Numbered from the stretch's first letter, positions 5,822 through 24,068 are shown. The stretch: 32,000 bases of DNA from Bellilinea caldifistulae (GCF_001306055.1 NZ_LGHJ01000027.1:1-32000); one strand, 5' to 3'. The notes: generated by a model from the letters alone, not told the origin. Numbers and translations: made by a program.

Positions 5822-6250
5822 AGCATCCTCCGTTAATTGGTGGTAATTTTTTGGTATTCCGATTCTGCCACCTCAAAACGGTCTTGAAAATATAAATTTT
5901 TGCTATACTATTGGGAAAGACAAATTCAGCCCCACCGCTGGTATCGGCGAGGCTGAGACGGCAACGCGGTGAAGGCGCGTTGCGGCAAAAACAAGCATAG
6001 CAAACTTTTGCCGCCCGCGCAAGTGAACCGCTAGGGAGTACAACAGATTCTTTGCGCAGTAATTTTATCTTTTCTGTACCTACTTAGTTGGTTTCCGCGT
6101 ACAGACAGTGATTTGTCAGAAAGCAGGGGGCTGTTCTTTCAACATAGTGACTTTATCCATGAAATCTCCTATTCCCCCAACTCTACTCTCACAAGTTTTA
6201 CAGCTTAACAAGGTATAAAAAATGCTCGGATTTCAACAAAATATGTAGTT

Positions 6251-6269
6251 TGTTGCAGTACTTGCAACA
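6251..6269. promoter_or_regulatory. Perfect 7-bp inverted repeat TGTTGCA-N5-TGCAACA upstream of WYL-cas3 (candidate operator)
   Basis: TGTTGCAGTACTTGCAACA, read directly, 135 nt upstream of the cas3 ATG. No binding data. Confidence 0.3.
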
Positions 6270-6312
6270 TCTATTCTGTAAGATATAGATAAGTCTGTAA
6301 CGCCTTCTCTAT

Positions 6313-6326
6313 TTTGATTAATCAAA
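6313..6326. promoter_or_regulatory. 14-bp perfect palindrome TTTGATTAATCAAA upstream of WYL-cas3 (candidate operator)
   Basis: Read directly. It is followed by TTTCAAA (6336-6342) / TTTGAAA (6353-6359) inverted heptamers. Confidence 0.3.
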
Positions 6327-6403
6327 TGATATGGATTTCAAAGACTTCTTGATTTGAAAGCACAAACGTCAAAAAAATTCATAAATGATAATAGGATGCA
6401 AAG

Positions 6404-9400
6404 ATGAGTGGACTGACCAAATCCGAACGATTGGAAGAAATGAAACGATTATACATTCAACGGGCATATTCCGATAAGGAACTGGCTGAACGGTTGGGAG
6501 TAAACAGAACACAAATTTATCGGGATCGAATCGAACTTTCCCGTGAATATCCGATAGAAAAAGATCAAAATGGACGGTATCACATTCCTCGCTCAAAACT
6601 GCTTTCAGAAATCAAGGTCAACCTTCTCGAAGCACTTACCCTCTATCTGGCTGCCAGCAAAATAGCCCGCCAAACCCGAGTTTATCACCCCCCCGCTGCC
6701 AACGCCGTCGAAAAACTGGCTGCGGTCTTACGCCAGCCAATGACGGAACAACTGCTGAACTCTGCCAACCGTCTCTTGAATCAAGAGAAAAAACCGGAAA
6801 AGATCAAAATCCTTGAAACCATTGCTCAGGCATGGGTGGAGCAGCGCAAAGTCCGAATGGAATATCAACGTCTGGGGCATGATGAAATTACGCGGCACAC
6901 TATCAGTCCCTATCTGATCGAACCTTCTATCTGGAGTGACAGTGTCTATGTCATTGCTCAAAGCGACTTCAACGATAAAATTTATCCCTTCAAAATAGAC
7001 CGAATCCTTTCCGCCTTCCTGACCAGCGAAACTTTTGCAATTCCCTCATCTTTTAGCTCAGAGGACTTGTTGAAACATGCCTGGGGAATCTGGTATGCCG
7101 ACCGCGAACCGGTTACCGTAAAACTGCGGTTTTTCCCCTCTCCAACCGTCATTCAACGGTTAGAGGAAAGTATCTGGCATCCGTTAGAGCGCGTCGAGAA
7201 AACCGAAGATGGCGGTCGAATCTGGAGCGTGGAAATTGCCGATTGGCGCGAGATGCTCCCCTGGATACGAGGATGGGGCGCCGATGTGGAAGTGCTGGAA
7301 CCGCCAGATCTGCGCTCCGCGTTGGAAAAAGAAGCCAGAAGAATGGCAAAATTGTATGGGATGGGAGATCTTAATACGGTGCGCCCTCGTTTCTTTGCCC
7401 ACCGTCGTGAGGATGAAGATTCTGAAAACTGGCAGCCCCTTATTGAGCATTTGAGGAACACAGCAGCAATGGCGCGCGACTTTGGCAAGGACGCCAACGT
7501 TGCGGATTTTGCTTACATCACTGGGCTGCTCCACGATTTAGGCAAATACTCAGATGAATTTCAAAAGCGGCTTGTAGGCAGTGGGAGGCGTGTTGATCAC
7601 TCTACTGCTGGCGCGAAAGAACTTATTAGCCTTTTCAAAGATAAGCCACAGCGACCCTTTGCTTATCTTCTAGCATATCCCATCTTGGGGCATCATGCCG
7701 GCTTGCCCGATTACGGTAGCGAAACTGATTTGGAAGGAGGCACCCTCTGTGCACGGCTAAAGAATGTCATTCCCGATTACAGTGCGTATAAAAACGAATT
7801 AGATGTTACGGAGTTGTCGCTTCCGCTAAATTTACCTTTTCGTCCATTGCACCTGCCAATTATCCCTCAAAAGCCACCCAAAAATTATTTTGGGTTCTCA
7901 CTCTCTTTTATGGCGCGTATGATTTATTCTGCCCTGGTTGATGCCGATTTTCAGGAAACGGAAACCTATATGAGGGGTAAAAAACCTCGCGGCGAGTATG
8001 ACAAGATCCCTGAATTGCGGGGAAAACTGGATCAGCACTTAAGGCAATTTGAGAAACCGACCAGCGAAATCAACCAAAAGCGCAACGAAATACTTCACGC
8101 CTGTATCGAAAAAGCAAAAACTGAAAAACCCGGCTTCTTCTCGCTTACTGTGCCAACAGGCGGAGGGAAGACGCTCGCTTCAATGGCGTTTGCACTTCAT
8201 CATGCTGCTGAATACGGCTTAAGACGTGTCATCTATGTGATCCCCTTCACGACCATCATCGAGCAAAACGCCGGGGTTTTCAAGAATATTTTCGGTGAAG
8301 AGCAGGTACTGGAACATCACTCCAATTTCGATTGGGAAGGTAAAAACCGTGAGGATGCCGACAACCGTACCAACAGTGTTCTTGCCAAACTCAAACTAGC
8401 GGCGGAGAACTGGGAGATTCCAATTGTGGTCACAACCAATGTGCAGTTTTTCGAATCGCTGTTTGCTAACAAGTCATCGCGCTGCCGAAAGCTACATAAC
8501 ATTGCAAAAAGCGTGATTATTTTTGATGAAGCCCAAATGTTACCGCGGGAGTACATGCGCCCAGCAATGGCGGCGGTATGGGAATTGGTCACCAATTACG
8601 GCGTAAGCGCCCTCTTTTGTACTGCTACCCAGCCCCGCTTGGAACGTTTCCTACCCTTGGGGACCGAAGTTAAAGAACTCGCACCCAACCCGCAGGAATT
8701 ATTCGATTTTTATAAGCGAGTGGATGTGCAGAATCTTGGGACGCTCACCGACGTGGAATTGTTAGATCGTCTGAATCGGCATGACCAGGTTCTGTGCATT
8801 GTCAACACCCGCCGCCACGCTAGCGGATTATTCAAGGGCTTACAGGGCGATGGAAATTTCCACCTTTCGACTCTAATGTGCCCGGTGCACCGCCGCGCCA
8901 AATTGGAGGAAATCAAAAAGAGATTGTCGAGCGGAAAATCCTGCCGCGTGGTCTCAACCACGGTAATGGAAGCAGGGATTGATCTGGATTTTCCCATCGG
9001 CTATCGCGCCCTTTCAGGGCTGGATTCCATCAACCAGGCGGCAGGACGCGTCAACCGCGAGATGCGGCAACCGTCAGGCTATCTGTTTGTTTTCGAGCCA
9101 AAGTCGGAATTCATCAATAAGACGCCTTCTTTTATCAAACAGGCGGCGGAAGTTGCTCGCATGGTCTTGCGTGATCATGCCAAAGCGCCGATTTCCATCC
9201 CCGCTATTCAAGCATTTTTCGGACATTTGTATAACTTGCAAGACCCTCTGGCATTTGACTTCAAACGTATTATGGATTGCTTTGAGGATGACGAGGGCAG
9301 GTTCAAATTTGAGACGGCGTCGCGGGCGTTCCAAATCATCGAAGACCCAACCGTAACGGTCATTATTCCCTTTAACGAGGAGGCTAAAAAACTGATTGAA

Positions 9401-9625
9401 GAATTGAAATATACCAAGTATCCATTCTCTACCTTGCGGAAACTTCAGCCCTACACAGTTTCTATTTATAAGAGCGAGTTCGATAAACTCAGTTCGAAAG
9501 GAGTCGTTTTGACTATTGAAGATACCTATCATTTCCTGAACCCCGACAACCTGCAAGCGTACTATGACCCGCATTGCGGTCTTCTTATCCCCGAAAACGG
9601 TGGCGGGGATGGGTTACTGTTCTAA
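6404..9625 (+). CDS. cas3: Cas3 HD nuclease / SF2 helicase (type I-C) with an N-terminal HTH-WYL-WCX regulator module fused in frame
   Basis: 1073-aa ORF with AGGA 7 nt upstream of the ATG. Residues 1 to about 318: HTH (SDKELAERLGVNRTQIYRDRIEL), WYL-type core (VRMEYQRLGHDEITRHTISPYLIEPSIWSDSVYVIAQSDFNDKIYPFKIDRI), WCX-like tail (WIRGWGADVEVLEPPDLRSAL). From about residue 325: Cas3 HD motifs (LLHDLGKY, VDHSTAG, GHHAGLPD), helicase motif I VPTGGGKT and motif II FDEAQ. Confidence 0.9.
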   Translation: MSGLTKSERLEEMKRLYIQRAYSDKELAERLGVNRTQIYRDRIELSREYPIEKDQNGRYHIPRSKLLSEIKVNLLEALTLYLAASKIARQTRVYHPPAANAVEKLAAVLRQPMTEQLLNSANRLLNQEKKPEKIKILETIAQAWVEQRKVRMEYQRLGHDEITRHTISPYLIEPSIWSDSVYVIAQSDFNDKIYPFKIDRILSAFLTSETFAIPSSFSSEDLLKHAWGIWYADREPVTVKLRFFPSPTVIQRLEESIWHPLERVEKTEDGGRIWSVEIADWREMLPWIRGWGADVEVLEPPDLRSALEKEARRMAKLYGMGDLNTVRPRFFAHRREDEDSENWQPLIEHLRNTAAMARDFGKDANVADFAYITGLLHDLGKYSDEFQKRLVGSGRRVDHSTAGAKELISLFKDKPQRPFAYLLAYPILGHHAGLPDYGSETDLEGGTLCARLKNVIPDYSAYKNELDVTELSLPLNLPFRPLHLPIIPQKPPKNYFGFSLSFMARMIYSALVDADFQETETYMRGKKPRGEYDKIPELRGKLDQHLRQFEKPTSEINQKRNEILHACIEKAKTEKPGFFSLTVPTGGGKTLASMAFALHHAAEYGLRRVIYVIPFTTIIEQNAGVFKNIFGEEQVLEHHSNFDWEGKNREDADNRTNSVLAKLKLAAENWEIPIVVTTNVQFFESLFANKSSRCRKLHNIAKSVIIFDEAQMLPREYMRPAMAAVWELVTNYGVSALFCTATQPRLERFLPLGTEVKELAPNPQELFDFYKRVDVQNLGTLTDVELLDRLNRHDQVLCIVNTRRHASGLFKGLQGDGNFHLSTLMCPVHRRAKLEEIKKRLSSGKSCRVVSTTVMEAGIDLDFPIGYRALSGLDSINQAAGRVNREMRQPSGYLFVFEPKSEFINKTPSFIKQAAEVARMVLRDHAKAPISIPAIQAFFGHLYNLQDPLAFDFKRIMDCFEDDEGRFKFETASRAFQIIEDPTVTVIIPFNEEAKKLIEELKYTKYPFSTLRKLQPYTVSIYKSEFDKLSSKGVVLTIEDTYHFLNPDNLQAYYDPHCGLLIPENGGGDGLLF

Positions 9626-9736: not shown

Positions 9737-10402
9737 ATGGGATACGGCATCATCATCCGCGTTGAAGGCTCTTATGCCCTGTTCACTCGCCCCGAAATGA
9801 AAGTGGAGCGCGTCAGTTACGATGTCATCACGCCCTCGGCGGCACGCGGGATTATCGAGGCGGTTTATTGGAAACCCGCTATCCGTTGGGTAATTGATAA
9901 AATCCATGTCCTGCGCGAAATTCAATTTACCAACATTCGTCGCAACGAGGTGAGCAGTAAAGCATCGGTGGACAATGCCTTGCAAGTGATGAAGGGCGCG
10001 CAAAAACCGCTCTACATCGCTGCTACCGAAACTCGTCAACAGCGCGCTGCAATGGTTTTAAAAGATGTGGATTATGTCATCGAGGCGCATTTCGATTTGA
10101 CAGACAAGGCCGGCCCGGACGATACACAGGAGAAGCATTACAACGTGGTTTTGCGCCGTCTGCGTAACGGTCAGCGCTTTCACACCCCCTGCCTGGGGAC
10201 TCGTGAGTTTCCTGCCAAGGTAACGCTCATCGAGGATAAAGACGACATCCCCAAAAGCCCGCTTGTGGGCAAGCGTGACCTGGGTTACATGCTTTACGAC
10301 CTGGATTTCTCCAACCCTCGCGACATTCAGCCAATGTTCTTCCGAGCGGTTATGGAAAATGGCGTTATTGTTGTGCCGAAGCCTGAGGAGGTGCGGCGAT
10401 GA
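9737..10402 (+). CDS. cas5: Cas5c (Cas5d) type I-C pre-crRNA endoribonuclease / Cascade subunit
   Basis: 221 aa with AAGGAGG upstream. The N-terminus MGYGIIIRVEGSYALFTRPEMKVERVSYDVITPSAARGIIEAVYWKP is characteristic of Cas5d. The stop overlaps the cas8c start (ATGA). Confidence 0.9.
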   Translation: MGYGIIIRVEGSYALFTRPEMKVERVSYDVITPSAARGIIEAVYWKPAIRWVIDKIHVLREIQFTNIRRNEVSSKASVDNALQVMKGAQKPLYIAATETRQQRAAMVLKDVDYVIEAHFDLTDKAGPDDTQEKHYNVVLRRLRNGQRFHTPCLGTREFPAKVTLIEDKDDIPKSPLVGKRDLGYMLYDLDFSNPRDIQPMFFRAVMENGVIVVPKPEEVRR

Positions 10403-12312
10403 TCTTGCAATCGCTCTATAACTACTACCAGATTTTGCGCGAAGACCCCGACGTAGAGATTGCCGAGCCCGGCTATAGCAATGCCCCTGTCAGTTATGCT
10501 CTCAATTTATCTGAAAACGGTGATCTGCTAGACATCGTACCGCTGTTTGTCCCTGTTCAATCCGGGAAAAAGACAGTGGAGAGACCCCGCCGAATGAATG
10601 TACCAGAGCAAGTCAAGCGTAGTGTCAACGTTGCGGCAAATTTCCTGTGTGATAACGCTGCTTATGTCCTTGGGCTCACCGGAAAAGAAGCAAAAGACCC
10701 GGAGTATTCCCAAAAGCGATTTGAGGCTTTTCGGAAACTAAATGTAGAAATTCTTTCTGGAGTTAATACCCCTTTAGCTCGTGCAGTGATTTCTTTCTTG
10801 CAAAAATACGATCCCTCAACCGCTTTACAGAATCCCGTAATTTCACGCCATCTGGAAGGATTGATGGAAGGTGGTAATCTTATCTTTCAGGTTGAAGGCA
10901 AGAATGTGCTGGACGACCCTCAAGTCAGGAGCGTTTGGGAGGAGTATAAAACCGGGCAAAAAGCGGCTGTCATGCAATGTCTGGTCACTGGTGAAATTGA
11001 GCCGGTTGAACGTCTGCATCCAGACATAAAAGGAGTTCGAGATGCCCAAAGCAAAGGCGCTTCTCTGGTTAGCTTCAACCTGGATGCATTTACATCTTAT
11101 GGCAGAGAACAAGGCTCGAATGCGCCCGTGAGCAAGCGGGTCGCATCAGGATATGGTGTGGCGCTCAATTATCTGCTTTCCAACCAAAACCCGAATCGCA
11201 AAATTTACTTTGGTGATACCACCGTGGTCTATTGGGCGGATGCGCCCGAAAAACGTTACGCAAGCGCTTTCTACTCTTTCCTGAATCCAGAATTCCAACA
11301 GGGGCAGGGGGAAGAAGAAACCGAAGAAACCAAAAGTGAGGAAAAACGGAAACGTGCCAAACAAGCAGAAAGAACGCTTGGCGAAGTAGCCGAATCTGTA
11401 TGGCAGGTAAAAGCCATTGACCTTGCCGAGTTACACAAACAAATTGAAAAAGAATTGGACAAAAACACGCGATTCAATATTTTGGGATTAGCCCCGAGCG
11501 CAGCGCGTTTGTCTGTGCGCTTCTTTCTCACCCAGCCGTTTGGCGTGTTCGCCGAACGCATCATGCAGCACTATGAAGACCTGCAAATCGAGAAGGAATA
11601 TGTCAACCAGCCGACATATATCTCGCCCTATCGCATCCTTGCCGAATGTGTTTCGCCCAAAGTGACCTCACGCGATGAAGAAGTAAAAAAATCCTGGTCA
11701 CTGTTAGGCGGTGCATTCATCCGTTCGATTCTCACGGGAACGCCTTACCCCGAAGGTTTGTACGCAGCCATTCTGAATCGTATTCGCCATGATACCGATG
11801 AATCCAGTGAAGGAGGAAGACAAAGAAGTATCAAAATCAACTATATCCGCGCTGCCTATCTCAAGGCGCATCTCATCCGAAAGTATCGCCGTCAAGGCAA
11901 TAATCCCTATCAGGAGGCTTTGCATATGTCACTCAATGAATCCTACACTCACCCGGCCTACGTGCTGGGCCGTCTGTTCGCTGTACTGGAAAAAGTACAG
12001 AGAGAATCTATTGGGACAACCATAAATGCCACCATCAAGGACCGCTACTTCACCTCTGCCTGCGCATCACCTGCCAGTGTTTTCCCAACGCTGCTACGGC
12101 TTGCCCATCATTGGACGGCGAAAGCCGAATATGGCAGCGTATCGGACAGAAAAATCCAGGACTTACTGGGCATGCTCGAGGCAAAACCCTTTCCATCGCG
12201 ATTCTCGTTGGATGAGCAGGGCATTTTTGTTCTGGGCTACTATCACCAGCGGGCTGCCTTCTACACCAAGAAGGATAATCATGCTGAGGAAACAAGTCAA
12301 CCCGATGATTAA
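10399..12312 (+). CDS. cas8c: Cas8c (Csd1) type I-C large subunit
   Basis: 637 aa in the canonical position between cas5c and cas7c. N-terminus MILQSLYNYYQIL and a C-terminal helical region typical of Csd1. Confidence 0.9.
   Translation: MILQSLYNYYQILREDPDVEIAEPGYSNAPVSYALNLSENGDLLDIVPLFVPVQSGKKTVERPRRMNVPEQVKRSVNVAANFLCDNAAYVLGLTGKEAKDPEYSQKRFEAFRKLNVEILSGVNTPLARAVISFLQKYDPSTALQNPVISRHLEGLMEGGNLIFQVEGKNVLDDPQVRSVWEEYKTGQKAAVMQCLVTGEIEPVERLHPDIKGVRDAQSKGASLVSFNLDAFTSYGREQGSNAPVSKRVASGYGVALNYLLSNQNPNRKIYFGDTTVVYWADAPEKRYASAFYSFLNPEFQQGQGEEETEETKSEEKRKRAKQAERTLGEVAESVWQVKAIDLAELHKQIEKELDKNTRFNILGLAPSAARLSVRFFLTQPFGVFAERIMQHYEDLQIEKEYVNQPTYISPYRILAECVSPKVTSRDEEVKKSWSLLGGAFIRSILTGTPYPEGLYAAILNRIRHDTDESSEGGRQRSIKINYIRAAYLKAHLIRKYRRQGNNPYQEALHMSLNESYTHPAYVLGRLFAVLEKVQRESIGTTINATIKDRYFTSACASPASVFPTLLRLAHHWTAKAEYGSVSDRKIQDLLGMLEAKPFPSRFSLDEQGIFVLGYYHQRAAFYTKKDNHAEETSQPDD
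11926..12312 (+). CDS. cas11: Candidate Cas11c small subunit from internal in-frame initiation within cas8c (128 aa)
   Basis: AGGAGG at 11912-11917, an 8-nt spacer, then ATG at 11926-11928 in the cas8c frame (codon 510). The product would be the last 128 aa. Type I-C systems are known to make Cas11c this way. Confidence 0.5.
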   Translation: MSLNESYTHPAYVLGRLFAVLEKVQRESIGTTINATIKDRYFTSACASPASVFPTLLRLAHHWTAKAEYGSVSDRKIQDLLGMLEAKPFPSRFSLDEQGIFVLGYYHQRAAFYTKKDNHAEETSQPDD

Positions 12313-12463
12313 TGTCATCGCAAGTGGTAAAGCGGCGAATCAATTTACTTTCAAAGAGAGCGCTACCCTCGTATTCAAAACAAGTGAATTGGCCATCTTC
12401 CTCGGCAAGACGGAAAATTGTAAAGTTTTTTCAAAAAACCAAAATAACAAAGGAGAATAACTC

Positions 12464-13330
12464 ATGACTACCCTTTCCAACCGCTATGAATTTGTTTTGC
12501 TCTACGACGTAGAGAACGGCAATCCGAACGGCGATCCTGATGCAGGAAATATGCCACGCATTGATCCTGAAACAGGCTACGGAATTGTCACCGACGTGTG
12601 CCTGAAGCGAAAAATTCGCAATTACGTGGAGATGATTAAGGGAGATACACCCGGTTACCGAATCTATGTCAAGGAAGGCATCCCGCTGAATGCCAATCAC
12701 AGAGAAGCCTATCTTGCCGTTGGTTTAGAACCCGGCAAGAAAGCTTCAGTAGAAGGGGTAAACAAAGCCCGCGAGTGGATGTGCAAGAACTTTTATGACA
12801 TCCGCACCTTTGGCGCCGTTTTGAGCGTTGGAGATAACTGCGGTCAGGTGCGCGGGCCAGTGCAATTGAACTTCTCCCGGAGCATTGACCCTATCGTTCA
12901 ACAAGAAGTGACCATCACTCGCCTGACAGTCACAAGAGAGGAAGAAGCAGACAAAGAGCGCACGATTGGGCGCAAACACATCATCCCCTATGCCTTATAC
13001 CGTGTTGAGGGGTATGTTTCTGCCAAATTAGCCAATGACCCGACCAAAGGAACCGGTTTCTCTGAAGAAGATCTGCAACTGTTTTGGGAGGCGTTAATCA
13101 ACATGTTTGAACATGACCGTTCGGCGGCGCGCGGAAAAATGGCAACCCGCAGATTGTTTGTTTTCAAACACGAGAGTGATTTGGGAAATGCACCCGCTCA
13201 TCGGTTGTTTGAACTGATTCGGGTCAATAAAAAAGAGGGCGCCAACCCACCGCGCAGTTTTGATGATTATGAGGTGAGTGTTAACAAAGATGACCTACCC
13301 TCTGGAGTCACCCTAATTCCCATGCTCTAA
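12464..13330 (+). CDS. cas7: Cas7c (Csd2) type I-C backbone subunit
   Basis: 288 aa with AAGGAGA upstream. YEFVLLYDVENGNPNGDPDAGNMPRIDPETGYGIVTDVCLKRKIRNYV is the hallmark Csd2/Cas7 N-terminus. Confidence 0.92.
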   Translation: MTTLSNRYEFVLLYDVENGNPNGDPDAGNMPRIDPETGYGIVTDVCLKRKIRNYVEMIKGDTPGYRIYVKEGIPLNANHREAYLAVGLEPGKKASVEGVNKAREWMCKNFYDIRTFGAVLSVGDNCGQVRGPVQLNFSRSIDPIVQQEVTITRLTVTREEEADKERTIGRKHIIPYALYRVEGYVSAKLANDPTKGTGFSEEDLQLFWEALINMFEHDRSAARGKMATRRLFVFKHESDLGNAPAHRLFELIRVNKKEGANPPRSFDDYEVSVNKDDLPSGVTLIPML

Positions 13331-13399
13331 GCCAATTTCGAAAACCCGGCTCCCACGTGGGGGGTGGGAGCCGGGGAATTTCCTTTTAGGGAACTAGAT

Positions 13400-14068
13400 A
13401 TGCCCCGCGAATATACCTCCGATGACCTTTTGCCCCTTTCCGGCATCCAGCACTTCATGTTTTGCCGTCGGCAGTGGGCACTGATTCATGTCGAACAACA
13501 ATGGAGAGAAAATACCTTCACCGCTGAGGGCAGGCTCTTACACCAACGGGTAGATGATCCTTTCTTTACCGAAACCCGAAATGGAGTCATCATTGCTCGC
13601 TCGGTACCGGTTGCTTCTTACCGTTTGGGGCTTTCGGGTATATGCGATGTGGTCGAATTCAGCGAGTCGGAAGTGGGTGTAAATCTGCCTGGCAGGCAAG
13701 GCACTTTCTTACCGGTGCCGGTGGAATACAAGCGTGGCCGCCCAAAATCCACCCCTGTGGACGAAGTTCAATTATGCGCTCAGGCAATCTGTCTGGAAGA
13801 AATGCTCTCGGTAGCCATTCCGGTTGGCTATCTATACTATGCAAAAACTCGCCACCGCACACCGGTAGAATTGACCGATAAGCTGCGTCAGCTGGTTGAT
13901 AAGATCAGTGCTGAAATGCATGCCTACTACGAACGCGGATACACTCCCAGAGTAAGAACTTCACGCGCCTGCCGTTCCTGTTCCCTGGCAGAAATTTGTC
14001 TGCCGCGCTTGCAAGAAAAATCCATGCCCGTTTCCCGCTATATTCATCAGTGGATTGACCATGACTAA
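13400..14068 (+). CDS. cas4: Cas4 RecB-like exonuclease with C-terminal Fe-S cysteines
   Basis: ORF 13364..14068 (GTG) trimmed to the ATG at 13400 (MPREYTSDDL...). An N-terminal Cys (FMFCRRQW) and C-terminal CRSCSLAEIC form the 4-Cys cluster pattern. PD-(D/E)xK-like DVVEF ... EYK. Confidence 0.85.
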   Translation: MPREYTSDDLLPLSGIQHFMFCRRQWALIHVEQQWRENTFTAEGRLLHQRVDDPFFTETRNGVIIARSVPVASYRLGLSGICDVVEFSESEVGVNLPGRQGTFLPVPVEYKRGRPKSTPVDEVQLCAQAICLEEMLSVAIPVGYLYYAKTRHRTPVELTDKLRQLVDKISAEMHAYYERGYTPRVRTSRACRSCSLAEICLPRLQEKSMPVSRYIHQWIDHD

Positions 14069-14071
14069 CCG

Positions 14072-15103
14072 ATGAAAACCCTTGCCAATGTCCTGTATAT
14101 AACCACACCCGATACTTACCTCTCTCTGGATGGGGAGAACATTGTCATCAAGAAAGATGAGCATACCTCAACGCGGCTGCCCCTTCATAACTTGGAAAAT
14201 ATTGTCTGCTTCAACTGGCAGGGCGCCAGTCCGGCTTTGATGGGCGCCTGCGCGGAAAGAGGAATCGGATTGGCATTCCTCTCGCCGAATGGACGTTTTC
14301 TTGGGAGGGTGAGCGGCAAGATTAAGGGCAATGTTCTGCTTCGGAAGAAGCAATATCGAATTTCCGAAGAAGAGACCCCCAGTGTGCCAATTGCCTCATC
14401 ATTTTTGGTTGGCAAAGTTTATAACAGCCGCAAAGTCATTGAACGCGCCTTGCGAGACCATGCACTGCTGGTGGACAAGGTTGCCCTCTCCAAAGCTTCT
14501 TCATTCCTAAAGGAAATTTTGAGCGCATTGGTCACCTGCAAACACATTGCAGAATTGATGGCATTTGAAGGGAGCGCAGCAAAGATCTATTTTGGGGTCT
14601 TCGATCAGTTGATCTTGCAACAGAAAGATGATTTTCACTTTGTCGAAAGATCGCGCCGCCCGCCGTTAGATAATATGAACAGCCTGCTTTCGTTCCTTTA
14701 CACCTTGCTGACTAATGAAGTGGTTTCTGCCTTGGAAGCAGTTGGACTGGATCCATACGTGGGGTTTCTTCATACCGAGCGTCCAGGTCGGCCTTCGCTT
14801 GCTCTGGATATGATGGAAGAACTGCGTCCCGTGTTTGCCGACCGATTGGCGCTTTCGCTGGTAAACCGCCGGCAAATCACTGCCAAAGGATTTACTCAAA
14901 AAGAAAGTGGCGGGATTTTGATGGATGATGAAACCCGGAAAACGGTCATCACTGCCTGGCAGGAACGTAAAAAGGAAGAAATCGAACATCCCTACCTGAA
15001 AGAACGCATTCCCTTTGGTTTGATCCCGCATGTGCAAGCCCTGTTACTGGCTCGTCACCTGCGCGGCGATTTGGATGCCTATCCTCCTTTTTTCTGGAGC
15101 TGA
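14072..15103 (+). CDS. cas1: Cas1 integrase (type I-C)
   Basis: 343 aa. LYITTPDTYLSLDGENIVI, AFEGSAAKIYF and GLDPYVGFLHTERPGRPSLALDMMEELRP are typical Cas1 motifs. Confidence 0.92.
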   Translation: MKTLANVLYITTPDTYLSLDGENIVIKKDEHTSTRLPLHNLENIVCFNWQGASPALMGACAERGIGLAFLSPNGRFLGRVSGKIKGNVLLRKKQYRISEEETPSVPIASSFLVGKVYNSRKVIERALRDHALLVDKVALSKASSFLKEILSALVTCKHIAELMAFEGSAAKIYFGVFDQLILQQKDDFHFVERSRRPPLDNMNSLLSFLYTLLTNEVVSALEAVGLDPYVGFLHTERPGRPSLALDMMEELRPVFADRLALSLVNRRQITAKGFTQKESGGILMDDETRKTVITAWQERKKEEIEHPYLKERIPFGLIPHVQALLLARHLRGDLDAYPPFFWS

Positions 15104-15136
15104 TGCGTAATTTGGTGATTATGGAAGAGGTATGAA

Positions 15137-15427
15137 ATGTTCGTTCTCATTACCTATGATGTCAACACCGAAACCGAAGCGGGAAAAAAGCGTTTGAGAA
15201 AAGTGGCCAAAGCCTGTCAGGATTACGGTCAACGGGTGCAGAATTCGGTTTTTGAATGTGTTATTGACCCGACCCGTTTTCGGTTTTTGCGAGCCAGGCT
15301 TGAGAAATTGATTGATAAGGAAAAGGACAGCCTCCGATTTTATTTTTTGGGCGATGAGTGGAAAAATCGGATCGAGCATATTGGAGCTAAGCCAAGCCTT
15401 GACATTACCGGAACTCTGATAACCTGA
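15137..15427 (+). CDS. cas2: Cas2
   Basis: 96 aa. MFVLITYDVNTETEAGKKRLRKVAKACQDYGQRVQNSVFEC is the classic Cas2 ferredoxin-fold N-terminus. Confidence 0.92.
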   Translation: MFVLITYDVNTETEAGKKRLRKVAKACQDYGQRVQNSVFECVIDPTRFRFLRARLEKLIDKEKDSLRFYFLGDEWKNRIEHIGAKPSLDITGTLIT

Positions 15428-15610: not shown

Positions 15611-18600
15611 GTCGCTCCCCCCACGGGGAGCGTGGATTGAAACATTGAAGCGTTGGAACAAGCAGAGGAAACTAGCCATGGTCGCTCCCCCCACGGGGAG
15701 CGTGGATTGAAACGCCTCTGGTGCGGAATTATCGAGATTGATGACAGGTCGCTCCCCCCACGGGGAGCGTGGATTGAAACTCGGTGGGAGGGTATTTGTA
15801 GACTTTGCTCCTCCGTCGCTCCCCCCACGGGGAGCGTGGATTGAAACACTGAGTGGCTCGGCCATTGGTCAACCGCTGGAGTCGCTCCCCCCACGGGGAG
15901 CGTGGATTGAAACAGGTGGTTGGCGAATTTGAGCGCATGTCTGCGACTCGTCGCTCCCCCCACGGGGAGCGTGGATTGAAACTCCTCAAAGACCTTGGAC
16001 GGAGACCGGATGCCCAAGGTCGCTCCCCCCACGGGGAGCGTGGATTGAAACTACATGGCTGATACTCAAGCGGAGTTGGACGCGGGTCGCTCCCCCCACG
16101 GGGAGCGTGGATTGAAACTCAATATATTTGTGACAAAAATAGAGATATTGTCAGTCGCTCCCCCCACGGGGAGCGTGGATTGAAACGGGGTGACGAAGGG
16201 CGGAACAGGGTAAATCTGTAACGTCGCTCCCCCCACGGGGAGCGTGGATTGAAACTTACATGTCCGCTAGATGCGGACGGTTTCGTAGCGTCGCTCCCCC
16301 CACGGGGAGCGTGGATTGAAACAAAGAACAATCACTTTGAACCCGAACGGTGCTTTGTCGCTCCCCCCACGGGGAGCGTGGATTGAAACCAGGCTGCGAG
16401 CCGGTCGCGCCAACTGTCTTGGCGCGTCGCTCCCCCCACGGGGAGCGTGGATTGAAACACGTGTTCTAGCCATGGTTTTACCTCTTTTGGATGTCGCTCC
16501 CCCCACGGGGAGCGTGGATTGAAACTCAACGAGAGTAGCGGTGTCGCTTTCCGCCAGCGATCGTCGCTCCCCCCACGGGGAGCGTGGATTGAAACCAGGC
16601 TGCGAGCCGGTCGCGCCAACTGTCTTGGCGGTCGCTCCCCCCACGGGGAGCGTGGATTGAAACTCAGCTGTAGTTGCGACTACCGTTAGGTTTTCCGGGT
16701 CGCTCCCCCCACGGGGAGCGTGGATTGAAACTACTCTAGCGTGCTTCCTACCTATATGCCTCCGGGTCGCTCCCCCCACGGGGAGCGTGGATTGAAACAA
16801 TAATTATATGGTTGAAAGTGTTTACGGTTATTTGTCGCTCCCCCCACGGGGAGCGTGGATTGAAACTTGGAGCAAACCGACCCAGCCATAAGAGCCGCTC
16901 AAGTCGCTCCCCCCACGGGGAGCGTGGATTGAAACCCAGAAGTAGATTTTGGGATCTCCAACTTTACCTCGTCGCTCCCCCCACGGGGAGCGTGGATTGA
17001 AACAGAAGTTTCTCTTCAATTCTTTCGATGAACCCCAGTCGCTCCCCCCACGGGGAGCGTGGATTGAAACACTCCATTAGCCGTTGTAAAATTACCGCCA
17101 GCGTGTCGCTCCCCCCACGGGGAGCGTGGATTGAAACTCGAGGCTTGCAAACGACTTGAAAAGAGGTTGAAATGGTCGCTCCCCCCACGGGGAGCGTGGA
17201 TTGAAACACTTCTTAAACCGCTTTGCCCACTTGCCCTCTTTGTCGCTCCCCCCACGGGGAGCGTGGATTGAAACCGTGCTGTCAAGTACTTTCTGCAACT
17301 TTTTAACTTGTCGCTCCCCCCACGGGGAGCGTGGATTGAAACAGGTGTGAGCAAATAATTCGCTCAACTTCCATCAGTCGCTCCCCCCACGGGGAGCGTG
17401 GATTGAAACCATGACGTGGTCGCTCACCGATAAAAATGCACTGTCGCTCCCCCCACGGGGAGCGTGGATTGAAACCCAAACGTCAACGCCGATCGTGGTT
17501 TTAGATAAGTGTCGCTCCCCCCACGGGGAGCGTGGATTGAAACTTGTTCTGCGGTCGTATCCGGTTGTTCGCCTTTGGTCGCTCCCCCCACGGGGAGCGT
17601 GGATTGAAACACGAGTAATACCAGCACGGAGGATGCAGGGAAAGTCGCTCCCCCCACGGGGAGCGTGGATTGAAACGATTTGCTCTGGCGTAACAACCTC
17701 TCCCGTGCTTGTCGCTCCCCCCACGGGGAGCGTGGATTGAAACCGGGAAGGAAGGCAAACTCGATTTTATTGGCGGCTTGTCGCTCCCCCCACGGGGAGC
17801 GTGGATTGAAACGCCTGCCTCCAATTCCCACACACCACCTGCAACGTGTCGCTCCCCCCACGGGGAGCGTGGATTGAAACAGACGCTGTGAGGTATGAGA
17901 TGGCTATCAAACTAGTCGCTCCCCCCACGGGGAGCGTGGATTGAAACTGCTTACAACGACCTGGTTGCTGAGAGCCGTGTCGGTCGCTCCCCCCACGGGG
18001 AGCGTGGATTGAAACTGGGTTCAATAGTACTGTCAGGTCTCTCGCAGTCGGTCGCTCCCCCCACGGGGAGCGTGGATTGAAACATCAATTAATACGATCG
18101 TCTCTACAGCCGAATATTGTCGCTCCCCCCACGGGGAGCGTGGATTGAAACTGTCACAAATATATTGAAAAGTGTATACTAATAATCGTCGCTCCCCCCA
18201 CGGGGAGCGTGGATTGAAACTGAGGGGATACTACCGGAATCGGAGGAAAGAACGGTGTCGCTCCCCCCACGGGGAGCGTGGATTGAAACTGTCGCCCCGC
18301 TGCCGGAGGACGGCGAGCGGTGGGTCGCTCCCCCCCACGGGGAGCGTGGATTGAAACGAGAAAATCAAAGCCGGACTGGTCGGCTCGTCAGAGTCGCTCC
18401 CCCCCACGGGGAGCGTGGATTGAAACGTGTAGAACGGCTCGAACTCAGCGATGTAATGGCGGTCGCTCCCCCCCACGGGGAGCGTGGATTGAAACTTTGA
18501 GAAGAACTTTTGCTACAAGACTTTTGACCGCCGTCGCTCCCCCCCACGGGGAGCGTGGATTGAAACCTGATGCCCGTGCGCGTACTGTGGAGCGCGCGGG

Positions 18601-21600
18601 GTCGCTCCCCCCCACGGGGAGCGTGGATTGAAACTTTCTTGCGTTTGCGTACACGCCCGATGCCGGGCGGTCGCTCCCCCCCACGGGGAGCGTGGATTGA
18701 AACAAACTTTTGCGCGAGATAACTACTGGAAAAGCGAGTCGCTCCCCCCCACGGGGAGCGTGGATTGAAACTTCTTGCGTTTGCGTACACGCCCGATGCC
18801 GGGCGGTCGCTCCCCCCCACGGGGAGCGTGGATTGAAACCCGGAAGTTGATCTCAACGAGTACTGGGATTATGTCGCTCCCCCCCACGGGGAGCGTGGAT
18901 TGAAACGCCCGTGTCGTGGGGCAGGCGTTCGGCCTGTGCGGTCGCTCCCCCCCACGGGGAGCGTGGATTGAAACGTCATTGTCATGGCGTTCGTGGTCAT
19001 CCCGCTGGGGTCGCTCCCCCCCACGGGGAGCGTGGATTGAAACACCGCACGCTCACGGTTATCGCCCATCGCCCAAGGTCGCTCCCCCCCACGGGGAGCG
19101 TGGATTGAAACGTCAGAAAAGGAACGCTATGCGTTCCTCATGCCGGTCGCTCCCCCCCACGGGGAGCGTGGATTGAAACTGAATTACCGGAGGAATTACT
19201 GCAAACACGAAGGGTCGCTCCCCCCCACGGGGAGCGTGGATTGAAACCGTAAACTCGCGGCTGCTCATGCGCGCCAGTCCGGGTCGCTCCCCCCCACGGG
19301 GAGCGTGGATTGAAACGCTCATTGCTTGCGCTCGCGGTAACCTCTGCGCGCGGTCGCTCCCCCCCACGGGGAGCGTGGATTGAAACTTCCGAAAGTCGCC
19401 AGACGGTCGTATCTCGTGCCGGGTCGCTCCCCCCCACGGGGAGCGTGGATTGAAACGCATTGATGCAGTGTCCATACCTCGATCCGCGACCGTCGCTCCC
19501 CCCCACGGGGAGCGTGGATTGAAACACGGTAGACCGGGTGGACATCGTTGGTGTGGTCAGTCGCTCCCCCCCACGGGGAGCGTGGATTGAAACGGTTGCG
19601 GGTGGCGTCACAACACGGACGTTCATTGTCGCTCCCCCCCACGGGGAGCGTGGATTGAAACACTAGACCCTCCCGCGATAAAACATAGCCCTCGCGTCGC
19701 TCCCCCCCACGGGGAGCGTGGATTGAAACGGATGGATAGATACCCATTGTCGTATTCCAATGCGTCGCTCCCCCCCACGGGGAGCGTGGATTGAAACACG
19801 TCAAATCAGGAAAGCGAGGCCAGATGCGATGTCGCTCCCCCCCACGGGGAGCGTGGATTGAAACGAGCCGCTGGGTCGCGATACGGACAGCCTGGACGTC
19901 GCTCCCCCCCACGGGGAGCGTGGATTGAAACGGCGATATAAAACGACTTGCGGACATAATCCCAGTGTCGCTCCCCCCCACGGGGAGCGTGGATTGAAAC
20001 TGCGCACTGCGTTAATCGTTTTTTTGCGCACGGTTGTCGCTCCCCCCCACGGGGAGCGTGGATTGAAACCACCCAATGGGTGGTGCATGACGGATATTCG
20101 CGGGTGTCGCTCCCCCCCACGGGGAGCGTGGATTGAAACATCCTCCTGCTGTGCCGCAGCCAGTAGCAGCGACCGTCGCTCCCCCCCACGGGGAGCGTGG
20201 ATTGAAACTGGATCGTCATCTACTGCCTCGTCAATCTCGCGGGTCGCTCCCCCCCACGGGGAGCGTGGATTGAAACGTAGGAGTCTATCATTGATAAGGC
20301 TTCAACGGCGGTTTGTCGCTCCCCCCCACGGGGAGCGTGGATTGAAACTTCGTAGTACCGCCGCGCGTCATCGTAGATTTTCGTCGCTCCCCCCCACGGG
20401 GAGCGTGGATTGAAACCCCGCCGGATCAACCGCCGCGACCAGGTTGTCCGGTCGCTCCCCCCCACGGGGAGCGTGGATTGAAACGTCCAAGGCCAGGTTG
20501 GTGGCCATCACGGTCAGCGTCGCTCCCCCCCACGGGGAGCGTGGATTGAAACAATTTGATATTGAATCAGACTTTACCCCCCAAATGTCGCTCCCCCCCA
20601 CGGGGAGCGTGGATTGAAACTACGAAAAGAACATTTAACAATTTCGAGTCATCGGTCGCTCCCCCCCACGGGGAGCGTGGATTGAAACCCGTTGTCGCGA
20701 AGCAAGATGAGCATGGTCTCGTCGCTCCCCCCCACGGGGAGCGTGGATTGAAACGGAAACGGCGCGAGGCGCACGGCGTCAGCCGCTCGTCGCTCCCCCC
20801 CACGGGGAGCGTGGATTGAAACTGGATGGTAATCGTAATAATCCATCGCCTCGTAAAGTCGCTCCCCCCACGGGGAGCGTGGATTGAAACGGAACGTTGT
20901 AATCGAGCATGATTACAACTTCCACGTCGCTCCCCCCACGGGGAGCGTGGATTGAAACAGGTATAGCGGTTCGTTGTATTCAATCTTTGTTCGTGTCGCT
21001 CCCCCCACGGGGAGCGTGGATTGAAACGAATCCGAACGGCGCTTTGGCCGCCGGTTCTTTGTCGCTCCCCCCACGGGGAGCGTGGATTGAAACCAACCTA
21101 TCCCGCCAGGACAGGCGGGACGCCTGGGTCGCTCCCCCCACGGGGAGCGTGGATTGAAACACATCGTTGCTGGTGACTGACGTCACCGAATCGCGTCGCT
21201 CCCCCCACGGGGAGCGTGGATTGAAACTTTTAACTATATTTTTATATCTTTCTGGCAAACGGGTCGCTCCCCCCACGGGGAGCGTGGATTGAAACAGCCA
21301 TTGCCAGTCTCCAAGTCAACTTCGTCCAGCGTCGCTCCCCCCATGGGGAGCGTGGATTGAAACCATAATGCAAGAAGTTTTACCCGAAAATCTTTTGTCG
21401 CTCCCCCCACGGGGAGCGTGGATTGAAACGTTTCGGTCCCGCTTTGTTGTTCCGGAGATGTCCGTCGCTCCCCCCACGGGGAGCGTGGATTGAAACTTCG
21501 GCAATCTAAAAGAAATGCTTTGGCCAACCCTGTCGCTCCCCCCACGGGGAGCGTGGATTGAAACGCGAATATGAGAAGATGTATCTCATGCGCTGGGAGT

Positions 21601-23996: not shown

Positions 23997-24068
23997 GGGT
24001 TTCAAAAACTCTAGGGCCTGTATGCAAACCAATTTATCATTGGTCTCATGGTATATAGATGTGAACTA

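What the first reader, a model, noticed from the sequence alone, without database searches (positions are those of the whole stretch)
6404..9625. HTH-WYL-WCX regulator module fused in frame to the type I-C Cas3 nuclease-helicase
The cas3 ORF is 1073 aa, about 320 aa longer than a stand-alone I-C Cas3. Residues 1 to about 318 (nt 6404-7357) have the architecture of PafBC/BrxR/CapW-type regulators. They show a helix-turn-helix (SDKELAERLGVNRTQIYRDRIEL), a WYL-like beta core (SVYVIAQSDFNDKIYPFKIDRI) and a WCX-like tail (GADVEVLEPPDLRSAL). The frame then runs without a stop into the normal Cas3 N-terminus (FFAHRRED..WQPLIEHLRNTA; HD motif HDLGKY at 7532-7549). WYL regulators are known as separate proteins controlling CRISPR, BREX and CBASS loci, and WYL1 modulates Cas13d. 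Here the sensor/DNA-binding module is joined to the effector nuclease. This suggests either autoregulation of the cas operon by Cas3 itself or ligand-gated Cas3 activity. I believe WYL-Cas3 fusions have been noted in comparative surveys, but I know of no functional characterisation. Internal ATGs at 7343 (M314, after purine-rich AGAAGA) and 7361 (M320) could also give a stand-alone Cas3.
Basis: partly seen in the sequence, partly recalled or inferred. Interest (0 to 1): 0.78.

Follow-up and report, generated by a model that had tools for sequence, protein, structure and literature searches.

The report
Transcription-factor module fused to Cas3
The CRISPR nuclease Cas3 of this bacterium (Bellilinea caldifistulae) carries a complete DNA-damage-sensor-type transcription factor on its front end, and a conserved binding site in its own promoter suggests the nuclease helps control its own operon; the fusion was listed in surveys in 2014 but has never been tested.

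Summary
ORF 6404-9625 (+) is one uninterrupted 1073-aa protein. Residues 1-~319 form a wHTH / three-helix-bundle / WYL / WCX module, followed by a 14-residue linker and an intact type I-C Cas3.

It is not an assembly artefact. All 120 listed homologue clusters carry the same architecture, including isolates of Anaerolinea, Roseiflexus, Chloroflexus and Gracilinema.

The module is closest to the ssDNA-activated activators DriD and PafBC, not to the repressors CapW/BrxR.

The palindrome at 6251-6269 (TGTTGCA-N5-TGCAACA) is a conserved operator. It lies 9 nt upstream of a TAnnnT −10 box, over the −35 position. A blind metagenome scan for it found the module gene directly downstream in 26 of 123 instances.

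Close relatives encode the module as a separate, translationally coupled gene. The same module (70% identical) is also fused to type I-E Cas3.

Best reading: ligand-gated (probably ssDNA) autoregulation of the cas operon by Cas3 itself. Activator versus repressor is unresolved.

The architecture is already known (Makarova 2014; a PADLOC Cas3c model covers it end to end). Its function is untested. Interest is moderate.

The parts
6251..6269 (.). Predicted operator: perfect palindrome TGTTGCA-GTACT-TGCAACA, spanning about -40 to -22 relative to the inferred transcription start
   Evidence: It occurs once in the 32-kb window. It is conserved upstream of the orthologous genes in L085, L086, L087, L001, L005, L084, L002 and L081. 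In a blind metagenome scan, 26 of 123 instances are followed by the module gene on the same strand.
6279..6284 (+). -10-like hexamer TAAGAT, 9 nt after the right arm of the palindrome; no -35-like hexamer at 16-18 nt spacing
   Evidence: The same 9-nt spacing to a TAnnnT hexamer is seen in the window, L085, L086, L087 and L005, none of which were selected for it. The consensus from 28 sites is. The assignment as a promoter is inferred; no transcript data are available.
6404..9625 (+). Single ORF, 1073 aa: transcription-factor module fused to type I-C Cas3 (coordinates include the stop codon)
   Evidence: PADLOC model Cas3c PDLC01766 matches residues 1-1073 end to end.
6404..6583 (+). Winged helix-turn-helix, residues 1-60; recognition helix about 35-46
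   Evidence: AF2 helices at 6-19, 24-31 and 35-46 plus a beta hairpin. R35 is invariant and R40 is present in 51 of 55 fused proteins. It aligns to the DriD wHTH.
6623..6778 (+). Three-helix bundle linker domain, residues 74-125
   Evidence: AF2 helices at 74-90, 96-108 and 113-125. These correspond to the DriD 3HB, residues 79-133.
6809..7015 (+). WYL (Sm-like beta-barrel) ligand-binding domain, residues 136-204
   Evidence: Pfam PF13280, 40 bits. R200 is invariant, K197 is present in 51 of 55, and Y/H182 is conserved.
7106..7348 (+). WCX (WYL C-terminal extension, dimerisation) domain, residues 235-315
   Evidence: Pfam PF25583, 65 bits. W258, H259, W287 and the motif R289-G-W-G292 are invariant.
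7358..7393 (+). Junction linker, residues 319-330, with low model confidence
   Evidence: pLDDT is below 50 at residues 322-326 in the full-length model. There are 14 residues between Y318 and H333 in 48 of 55 fused proteins. Split relatives place the stop and start codons here.
7394..7963 (+). Cas3 HD nuclease domain, residues 331-520
   Evidence: NCBIfam cas3_HD, 95 bits. H333, H377-D378, H430-H431 and D513/D515 are invariant.
8069..9622 (+). Cas3 SF2 helicase (residues 556-890) plus C-terminal domain
   Evidence: NCBIfam cas3_core, 121 bits. Walker A PTGGGKT, DEAQ, TAT and QAAGRVNR are conserved. Foldseek top hits are the I-C Cas3 structures 8zns and 8g9u_P.
9737..15427 (+). Rest of the type I-C operon: cas5c 9737-10402, cas8c 10399-12312, cas7c 12464-13330, cas4 13364-14068, cas1 14072-15103, cas2 15137-15427
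   Evidence: Pfam and NCBIfam subtype-specific models all score above their cut-offs.
15611..23996 (+). CRISPR array, about 124 repeats (GTCGCTCCCCCC(C)ACGGGGAGCGTGGATTGAAAC)

Best explanation
The first gene of this type I-C operon encodes one polypeptide made of two functional units.

- **Residues 1 to about 319** form a DriD/PafBC-type transcription factor (wHTH, three-helix bundle, WYL, WCX).
- **Residues about 331-1073** form a catalytically intact Cas3 nuclease-helicase.

The proposed mechanism is as follows. The module dimerises through WYL/WCX. Its two wHTH domains bind the 19-bp palindrome TGTTGCA-N5-TGCAACA, which lies over the -35 position of the cas3 promoter. Binding is gated by a ligand held in the WYL/WCX cleft, most likely short single-stranded DNA, as in DriD, PafBC and CapW.

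Cas3 produces ssDNA when it degrades a target. Fusing or translationally coupling the sensor to Cas3 would therefore give a feedback loop, in which the operon (interference plus adaptation genes) is retuned once interference or DNA damage begins.

**Shown here**
- The architecture, and the intactness and conservation of both halves.
- The conserved operator and its fixed position relative to the -10 box.
- The coexistence of fused and split forms.
- The exchange of the module between I-C and I-E cas3 genes.

**Inferred**
- That the module itself binds this operator.
- That it dimerises.
- That the ligand is ssDNA.
- The direction of regulation. I lean towards activation (about 55:45). The reasons are the closer kinship to DriD/PafBC, the three-helix bundle, and a promoter with no -35 hexamer.
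For: **Fold and homology**
- AF2 model of residues 1-325: pLDDT 94.6.
- Foldseek: DriD 3e-17 over the full length, then PafBC, CapW and BrxR.
- Family profile against PDB sequences: DriD 2e-33 (profile 5-319 against DriD 7-327) and PafBC 1.5e-32.

**The DNA-reading head is under selection in fused proteins**
- R35 in 55/55 and R40 in 51/55.

**Most DriD ssDNA-contact positions are kept**
- Y154, Y182, K192, F196, K197, R200 (55/55), W230 (54/55) and R282.

**Operator**
- A single copy in the window.
- Present upstream of fused orthologues at varying distances from the ATG, and upstream of the split gene in Ornatilinea.
- GTTGC-N5-9-GCAAC occurs in the module-carrying loci but in only 3-4 of about 70 module-less I-C loci, and there at unrelated positions.
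- Blind scan: 26 of 123 exact instances have the module gene downstream on the same strand. No independent instance had the module in the wrong orientation. No module gene occurred elsewhere in those 738 kb.

**Promoter geometry**
- TAnnnT lies 9 nt after the right arm in 5 of 5 loci not selected for it.
- DriD sites likewise overlap the -35 position at a fixed distance from the -10, on promoters that lack a -35 element (PMC13004042).

**Functional linkage to Cas3**
- Genuine split forms use TAATG or TAGCGATG stop/start coupling.
- The same module, 70% identical up to the junction, is fused to I-E Cas3 that is only 23% identical.
- Linker length is fixed at 14 residues in 48/55.

**Cas3 is intact**
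- Catalytic motifs are invariant.
- The array has about 124 repeats.
Against: - No binding, expression or ligand data exist for any member of this fusion class.
- Three DriD ssDNA-contact arginines are not kept. R176 and R178 correspond to T163 and H165. R204 corresponds to Y194, and is Arg in only 23/55 fused proteins against 52/62 stand-alone ones. The ligand could therefore differ.
- Some loci carry an extra small wHTH ORF between the operator and the fusion gene (L081, L001, L015, L116, L160). That protein could be the operator-binding factor in those loci.
- A transcription factor carrying an 83-kDa nuclease-helicase on each subunit may be sterically awkward on a promoter. The full-length model gives no reliable inter-domain geometry (pTM 0.56).
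- The promoter elements are assigned by pattern only, and Chloroflexota promoters are poorly characterised.
Confidence: 0.6

Rival explanations
1. Accessory nucleic-acid-binding domain. The WYL/WCX part mainly serves Cas3 enzymology, as the C-terminal WYL domain of Thermotoga elfii Pif1 does for that helicase. It would hold the displaced or translocated single strand, helping to load or gate the HD nuclease and helicase at the Cascade R-loop. Any promoter binding would be secondary. This reading is compatible with the best explanation and could hold in addition to it.
For: [quoted passage not shown]
- The linker to the HD domain is short and length-constrained: 14 residues in 48/55.
- The module stays with Cas3 across two subtypes.
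- The split forms are translationally coupled, as expected for subunits of one complex.
- The WYL pocket has diverged somewhat in fused proteins, with R204-equivalent Arg in only 23/55.
Against: - The complete transcription-factor module is retained, including the wHTH with an invariant recognition-helix arginine. TePif1 has only the WYL barrel.
- A conserved palindromic operator sits in the promoter of fused genes. A pure enzymatic accessory role would not need it.
- Most I-C Cas3 proteins work without any such domain.
- One close relative at 61% identity (L004) lacks the module entirely.
Confidence: 0.2
2. CapW/BrxR-like repressor version of autoregulation. The module sits on the operator and blocks RNA polymerase. 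Ligand binding, or recruitment of the fused Cas3 to Cascade-bound targets, pulls it off and derepresses the operon.
For: - WYL regulators next to defence loci that have been tested (CapW, BrxR, sll7009) are repressors. For CapW, ssDNA was shown to release it from DNA (PMC11662680; PMC4012209).
- The operator covers the -40 to -22 region, a classic repressor position.
- CapW and BrxR are also fold matches (E about 1e-8).
Against: - Sequence kinship is far stronger to the activators DriD and PafBC (2e-33 and 1.5e-32) than to BrxR (1e-5).
- The RWHVR motif of CapW/BrxR is absent; the window has SVYVI.
- A three-helix bundle is predicted, rather than the two-helix linker of CapW.
- The promoter has no -35-like hexamer, as in activator-dependent DriD promoters.
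Confidence: 0.3
3. Two products or no functional fusion. The long ORF is an assembly or annotation artefact, or cells mainly make a separate Cas3 from an internal start (M314, M320 or V326), so the covalent link has little meaning.
For: - Close relatives do encode two proteins (L005, L003, L024, L063).
- A Met or Val codon often lies where the split relatives have the Cas3 start.
- Internal initiation cannot be excluded from sequence alone.
Against: - The reading frame is continuous in all 120 listed homologue clusters, including several isolate genomes.
- M314 and M320 are not conserved; the consensus residues are L and V.
- No GGAG-type ribosome-binding site precedes them in the window. The genuinely split relatives have AGGAG or GAGGA.
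- The linker length is constrained.
- A dedicated end-to-end profile exists in PADLOC.
Confidence: 0.1

Closest known systems
WYL-Cas3 fusions listed by Makarova, Anantharaman, Grishin, Koonin and Aravind 2014 (Front Genet 5:102); PADLOC-DB model Cas3c PDLC01766
   Same: This is the same architecture. [quoted passage not shown] The 1009-position PADLOC profile matches the window protein from residue 1 to 1073.
   Different: Nothing differs in architecture. The literature gives one sentence and no operator, ligand, oligomeric state or phenotype. The comparative results here are not in the papers I could search: the conserved operator, the kinship to DriD, the fused/split switching, and the I-C/I-E exchange.
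DriD (Caulobacter crescentus) and PafBC (actinobacteria): ssDNA-activated WYL transcription activators
   Same: - It has the same four-domain order: wHTH, three-helix bundle, WYL, WCX.
- It gives a full-length profile and fold match.
- Most ssDNA-contact positions are kept.
- Its palindromic site has 7-nt arms over the -35 position at a fixed distance from the -10, on a promoter without a -35 hexamer.
   Different: - It is covalently joined to a nuclease-helicase.
- It regulates, by inference, a CRISPR-Cas operon rather than DNA-damage genes.
- The operator sequence and spacer differ: N5 here against N7 for DriD.
- Three contact arginines are replaced.
- Identity is only about 20%.
CapW / BrxR (and sll7009): WYL repressors next to CBASS, BREX and CRISPR loci
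   Same: It is a defence-locus-associated wHTH-WYL-WCX protein with a palindromic operator in the promoter it is transcribed from. For CapW, ssDNA is the ligand.
   Different: - The sequence match is much weaker (BrxR 1e-5).
- The RWHVR motif is absent.
- The linker has three helices rather than two.
- Those proteins are free-standing.
Thermotoga elfii Pif1 helicase with a C-terminal WYL domain
   Same: A WYL domain is fused to a DNA helicase. In TePif1 it binds ssDNA and tunes ATPase and unwinding.
   Different: TePif1 has only the WYL barrel, at the C-terminus, with no HTH or WCX and no operator. Here a whole transcription factor sits at the N-terminus.
Canonical type I-C Cas3 (solved structures 8zns, 8g9u)
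   Same: Residues about 331-1073 match in fold (E 2e-37 and 7e-31; 31-32% identity) and carry all the motifs. The operon is a standard I-C operon.
   Different: There are an extra 320-330 N-terminal residues.

Membership tests
Type I-C Cas3 (Cas3c) | HD nuclease motifs plus SF2 helicase motifs I, II, III and VI in one polypeptide | tested here: met
   NCBIfam cas3_HD (95 bits) and cas3_core (121 bits) score above their cut-offs. H333, HD377-378, HH430-431, D513/D515, PTGGGKT, DEAQ, TAT and QAAGRVNR are conserved in 55 homologues.
Type I-C Cas3 (Cas3c) | Encoded with cas5c, cas8c (csd1), cas7c (csd2), cas4, cas1c and cas2, with a I-C type repeat array | tested here: met
   Subtype-specific NCBIfam models (TIGR01876, TIGR01863, TIGR02589, TIGR03640) all score above their cut-offs. 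The array is at 15611-23996.
Type I-C Cas3 (Cas3c) | Fold similarity to solved I-C Cas3 | tested here: met
   Foldseek gives 8zns at E 2e-37 and 8g9u_P at E 7e-31.
WYL-Cas3 fusion class (Makarova 2014; PADLOC Cas3c PDLC01766) | WYL-containing N-terminal extension in the same polypeptide as Cas3, matched end to end by the class profile | tested here: met
   PDLC01766 aligns residues 1-1073 to profile positions 1-1009 of 1009, at 1702 bits. Residues 1-323 alone score 518 bits.
wHTH-WYL-WCX transcription factors, DriD/PafBC branch | Domain order wHTH, three-helix bundle, WYL, WCX | tested here: met
   Secondary structure of the AF2 model, Pfam WYL and WCX, and the full-length profile alignment to DriD at 2e-33.
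wHTH-WYL-WCX transcription factors, DriD/PafBC branch | ssDNA-contact residues in the WYL/WCX cleft | tested here: inconclusive
   Eight of eleven DriD contact positions are conserved in type. R176, R178 and R204 are replaced by T163, H165 and Y194. The mapping uses a sequence-profile alignment, not a structural superposition.
wHTH-WYL-WCX transcription factors, DriD/PafBC branch | Binds a (pseudo)palindromic site overlapping the -35 position at a fixed distance from the -10 | tested here: inconclusive
   A conserved palindrome with the right geometry exists, and it co-occurs with the module gene. Binding itself was not and cannot be tested here.
wHTH-WYL-WCX transcription factors, DriD/PafBC branch | Dimer, and ssDNA-dependent transcription activation | not testable with these tools
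   This needs SEC-MALS or cryo-EM, in-vitro transcription, or reporter assays.
CapW/BrxR repressor family | RWHVR motif on the WYL strand, with its two ssDNA-contacting arginines | tested here: not met
   The equivalent positions 180-184 read SVYVI in the window, and SVYVI, TTHVI or SIYVI in 55 fused homologues. None has the flanking arginines (motif from PMC11662680).
CapW/BrxR repressor family | Close sequence relationship to CapW/BrxR | tested here: not met
   The family profile hits BrxR 7qfz at only 1e-5 over 83 residues, against 2e-33 for DriD. PADLOC returns generic cas-associated WYL models.
TePif1-type helicase with accessory WYL | An isolated WYL barrel appended to the helicase, without an HTH | tested here: not met
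   Here a complete wHTH-3HB-WYL-WCX module is present at the N-terminus.

The most novel reading that the evidence does not exclude
Cas3 is itself a ligand-gated transcription factor. The ssDNA that the nuclease-helicase makes while shredding a target is read in cis by its own WYL/WCX cleft. That switches the wHTH pair onto or off the operator, so interference directly drives expression of the whole interference-plus-adaptation operon as a product-sensing feedback loop. Because WYL/WCX modules dimerise, the effector would also be an obligate two-headed Cas3. This could change how DNA is degraded at an R-loop, for example on both strands or in both directions.
Probability: 0.25. Interest if true: 0.75.

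Novelty: new member of a known kind. Interest (0 to 1): 0.5.

Why it matters
How bacteria keep a self-destructive nuclease such as Cas3 quiet, and then raise CRISPR-Cas expression during attack, is only partly understood. WYL regulators were recently shown to sense single-stranded DNA.

Here such a sensor is welded to, or translationally coupled with, the enzyme that makes single-stranded DNA, in two CRISPR subtypes and several phyla. If the proposed loop exists, it would be a direct molecular link between interference activity and cas gene expression, and so to primed adaptation.

The conserved 19-bp operator, the natural fused/split pairs and the thermophilic source organisms make this testable with simple biochemistry. 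The module could also be of practical use as a portable, ligand-responsive handle on Cas3 genome-editing tools.

Tried and rejected
- **Frameshift or misassembly artefact:** rejected. The frame is continuous in all 120 listed homologue clusters, and the identical protein is on record from a 3.7-Mb contig.
- **P0122 as the closest stand-alone relative (354 aa, 60% identity):** rejected. Reading L084 across the junction shows a fused gene broken by a frameshift in a long-read contig.
- **The other window palindromes** (6313-6326 TTTGATTAATCAAA and 6336-6359): not conserved in any orthologue. They lie in an insertion of about 85 nt relative to L086 and L087.
- **Internal start at M314 or M320:** there is no conserved start codon and no GGAG-type ribosome-binding site. 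This is not excluded experimentally.
- **A second operator elsewhere in the window** (CRISPR leader, or in front of cas5 or cas1): none found with up to 2 mismatches.
- **Whether stand-alone family members are always cas-linked:** they are not. P0144 lies beside an ARPP-1 gene and P0204 beside a dehydrogenase. P0127 is not on record.
- **Monophyly of the fusions:** a rough neighbour-joining tree of N-modules mixes I-C-fused, I-E-fused, split and free forms. The tree has no support values, so I rely on pairwise identities instead.
- **Homology of the upstream integrases** in the window and in L081: only 34% identity over the catalytic core. This is no evidence for a shared insertion site.
- **Self-targeting spacers:** none within the window.
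- **Estimating what fraction of all I-C Cas3 carry the module:** not possible.


Full report
**1. What is in the window**

The window comes from Bellilinea caldifistulae (Anaerolineae, Chloroflexota). The translated ORF is 100% identical to an NCBI protein of that species, found on a 3.7-Mb contig.

ORF 6404-9625 (+) is uninterrupted and encodes 1073 aa. It is the first gene of a complete type I-C operon:
- cas5c 9737-10402
- cas8c 10399-12312
- cas7c 12464-13330
- cas4 13364-14068
- cas1 14072-15103
- cas2 15137-15427

All of these score above the curated cut-offs of subtype-specific models. A CRISPR array of about 124 repeats follows at 15611-23996.

**2. The N-terminal extension is a complete WYL-type transcription factor**

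Pfam finds WYL at residues 136-204 and WCX at 235-315, both above their gathering scores. It also finds a sub-threshold HTH at 16-56.

I predicted residues 1-325 with an alignment of 61 relatives. The model is confident (pLDDT 94.6, pTM 0.80). It shows a winged HTH (1-60), three helices (74-125), a beta-barrel (148-210) and an alpha/beta WCX domain ending in a long helix (301-317).

The best PDB matches by Foldseek are:
- full-length DriD: E 3e-17, TM about 0.6
- PafBC: about 1e-13
- CapW: 1e-8
- BrxR: 2e-8
- the Cas13d accessory protein WYL1: 7e-7

A sequence profile of the family aligns with DriD from end to end (E 2e-33) and with PafBC (1.5e-32). It reaches BrxR only at 1e-5. The RWHVR motif that defines the CapW/BrxR ligand site is absent. 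The module therefore belongs to the wHTH-WYL-WCX superfamily and sits nearer the DriD/PafBC activator branch.

**3. The Cas3 part is intact**

Residues about 331-1073 match the solved I-C Cas3 structures 8zns and 8g9u (E 2e-37 and 7e-31). All HD and helicase motifs are invariant or nearly so in 55 fused homologues.

In the full-length model the two halves are joined by a low-confidence segment at residues 322-326. The number of residues between Y318 and H333 is 14 in 48 of 55 proteins, so the linker is short and length-constrained.

**4. The fusion is real, widespread and already catalogued**

All 120 best homologue clusters (59-88% identity, full coverage, about 1060-1110 aa) carry WYL and/or WCX plus Cas3 domains. 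They include isolates of Anaerolinea, Roseiflexus and Chloroflexus, and the spirochaetes Gracilinema caldarium and Treponema sp. J25.

Makarova et al. [quoted passage not shown] PADLOC-DB contains a 1009-position "Cas3c" model that matches this protein end to end, N-terminal module included.

Four full-text searches found no functional study of such a fusion.

**5. Comparative evidence that bears on function**

(a) *Fused and split forms coexist among close relatives.* I used my own HMMs of the two halves on 80 genome loci that had been seeded only on Cas3 helicase motifs.
- Fused genes occur in a Chloroflexi MAG, an Ignavibacteriales MAG and Litorilinea.
- Ornatilinea apprima, an isolate at 60% identity, has two genes joined by TAATG with an AGGAG ribosome-binding site.
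- An Anaerolineales MAG has TAGCGATG.
- Lachnospiraceae, Desulfobacteraceae and Thermoanaerobaculia MAGs have a separate module gene directly upstream of cas3.
- One close relative (L004, 61% identity) and about 68 other I-C loci lack the module entirely.

(b) *The same module is fused to a different Cas3 subtype.* Among the best 150 representatives of the module family there are:
- 82 free-standing proteins
- 39 fused to I-E-type Cas3
- 12 fused to I-C-type Cas3

P0121 sits in a full I-E operon (cse1, cse2, cas7e, cas5e, cas6e, cas1, cas2). Its module is 70% identical to the window's (E 1e-168) right up to the junction. After that point the Cas3 parts are only 23% identical. The module has therefore been exchanged between cas3 genes at the domain boundary. 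This argues for selection on the pairing with Cas3 and not on one particular operon.

(c) *A conserved operator.* The perfect palindrome TGTTGCA-GTACT-TGCAACA at 6251-6269 occurs once in the window.
- The same palindrome lies upstream of the orthologous genes in L085, L086 and L087 (A. thermophila). These sites are at -136, -67 and -74 from the ATG, and the flanks have diverged.
- Close variants precede the fused gene in L001, the split gene in Ornatilinea, and the I-E fused operon.
- In all five loci with a near-perfect site, none selected for this feature, a TAnnnT hexamer follows exactly 9 nt after the right arm. This places the palindrome at about -40 to -22.
- No -35-like hexamer sits at the normal spacing.

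I then ran a blind scan of metagenome contigs for palindrome-N9-TANNNT. Of these, 26 have the module gene downstream on the same strand within 700 nt. Those genes include I-C-fused, I-E-like-fused and split forms. The only two "wrong" hits are reverse-strand matches in loci that also score correctly. No module gene occurs anywhere else in those 738 kb.

The geometry resembles DriD. Its 7-nt-arm palindrome overlaps the -35 position at a fixed distance from the -10 on promoters without a -35 element (PMC13004042).

(d) *Both functional surfaces are conserved in fused proteins.*
- Recognition-helix R35 is invariant and R40 is present in 51/55.
- Of the DriD ssDNA-contact positions, Y154, Y182, K192, F196, K197, R200 (55/55), W230 (54/55) and R282 are kept in type.
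- The equivalents of R176, R178 and R204 are not kept. The last is Arg in 23/55 fused proteins against 52/62 free-standing ones.

**6. Interpretation**

The best-supported reading is that the N-terminal module is still a working, ligand-gated DNA-binding domain that acts on the promoter of its own operon. Cas3 would therefore autoregulate the cas genes.

ssDNA is the most likely ligand, by homology with DriD, PafBC and CapW. Cas3 itself makes ssDNA, so a feedback loop is an attractive inference, but it remains an inference.

I lean slightly towards activation. The reasons are the kinship to DriD/PafBC, the three-helix bundle, and a promoter without a -35 hexamer. Repression of the CapW/BrxR kind is a serious alternative.

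An accessory role of the WYL domain in Cas3 loading or gating, as in TePif1, is compatible with this reading and may act in addition. The constrained linker and the translational coupling in split relatives point to a physical partnership.

Two separate products from internal initiation are not supported. M314 and M320 are not conserved and lack a ribosome-binding site. This cannot be excluded without protein data.

**7. Caveats**
- No experiment exists for any member of this class.
- The promoter assignment is by pattern only.
- The contact-residue mapping rests on a profile alignment.
- Some loci carry an extra small wHTH ORF that could bind the operator there.
- The neighbour-joining tree has no support values.
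- The metagenome scan pattern itself required the TAnnnT box.

**8. Verdict**

The architecture is a known, catalogued but uncharacterised class, and this protein is one more member of it.

New here are:
- the conserved operator and its promoter geometry
- the DriD/PafBC affiliation
- the natural fused/split series
- the I-C/I-E module exchange

Together these turn a one-line survey remark into a directly testable hypothesis. Interest is moderate (0.5).

Noticed in passing
window 15611-23996: The CRISPR array has three blocks of repeat variants: 40 repeats of 33 nt, then 37 repeats of 34 nt with one extra C in the C-run, then 45 repeats of 33 nt. There are also internal duplications of repeat-spacer units, about 199 nt at 22748-23181 and another at 16357-16630. 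This may reflect recombination between two arrays or a block insertion.
   Followed up: partly
L081 8639-9004; also L001 about 5700-5860, L015 about 176-380, L116, L160: In several loci a small winged-HTH ORF of about 90-125 aa lies between the conserved operator and the module-cas3 gene, overlapping its start by 4 nt in L081. In L116 and L160 the ORF resembles the HTH part of the module (E 1e-6 to 8e-10). The window has no such ORF. It could be a second regulator acting on the same operator.
   Followed up: partly
window 5054-5821 (-); L081 7263-8291 (-): A tyrosine recombinase gene lies on the opposite strand upstream of the fusion gene. In the window it is 255 aa and appears to lack the C-terminal end of the catalytic domain. 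The I-E fused locus also has an integrase in the same position, but the two are only 34% identical.
   Followed up: partly
L084 8950-9420 (protein P0122): A 354-aa protein that looks like a stand-alone regulator is in fact a fused gene with a frameshift just after the junction, in a long-read metagenome contig. Some apparent free-standing family members in databases may be artefacts of this kind.
   Followed up: yes
L004 5977-8283: An Anaerolineaceae Cas3 that is 61% identical to the window's Cas3 part has no N-terminal module, and no module gene lies within 6 kb on either side. The module can therefore be lost completely in close relatives.
   Followed up: partly
window 6285-6403: There are about 85 nt of extra, AT-rich sequence between the promoter and the start codon compared with L086 and L087. 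It contains two non-conserved palindromes (6313-6326 and 6336-6359). Its role is unknown; it could be a long 5' leader.
   Followed up: partly
window about 24060-24200 (+): Just past the end of the array, an ORF begins MNEQWERIEPLLPPQKPKAR and then hits a stop. To my eye this resembles the N-terminus of an IS-family transposase with a frameshift. I did not check it with any tool (sequence printed).
   Followed up: no
window 3998-4645 (+): A 215-aa ORF has no Pfam or NCBIfam match at E <= 0.01.
   Followed up: no
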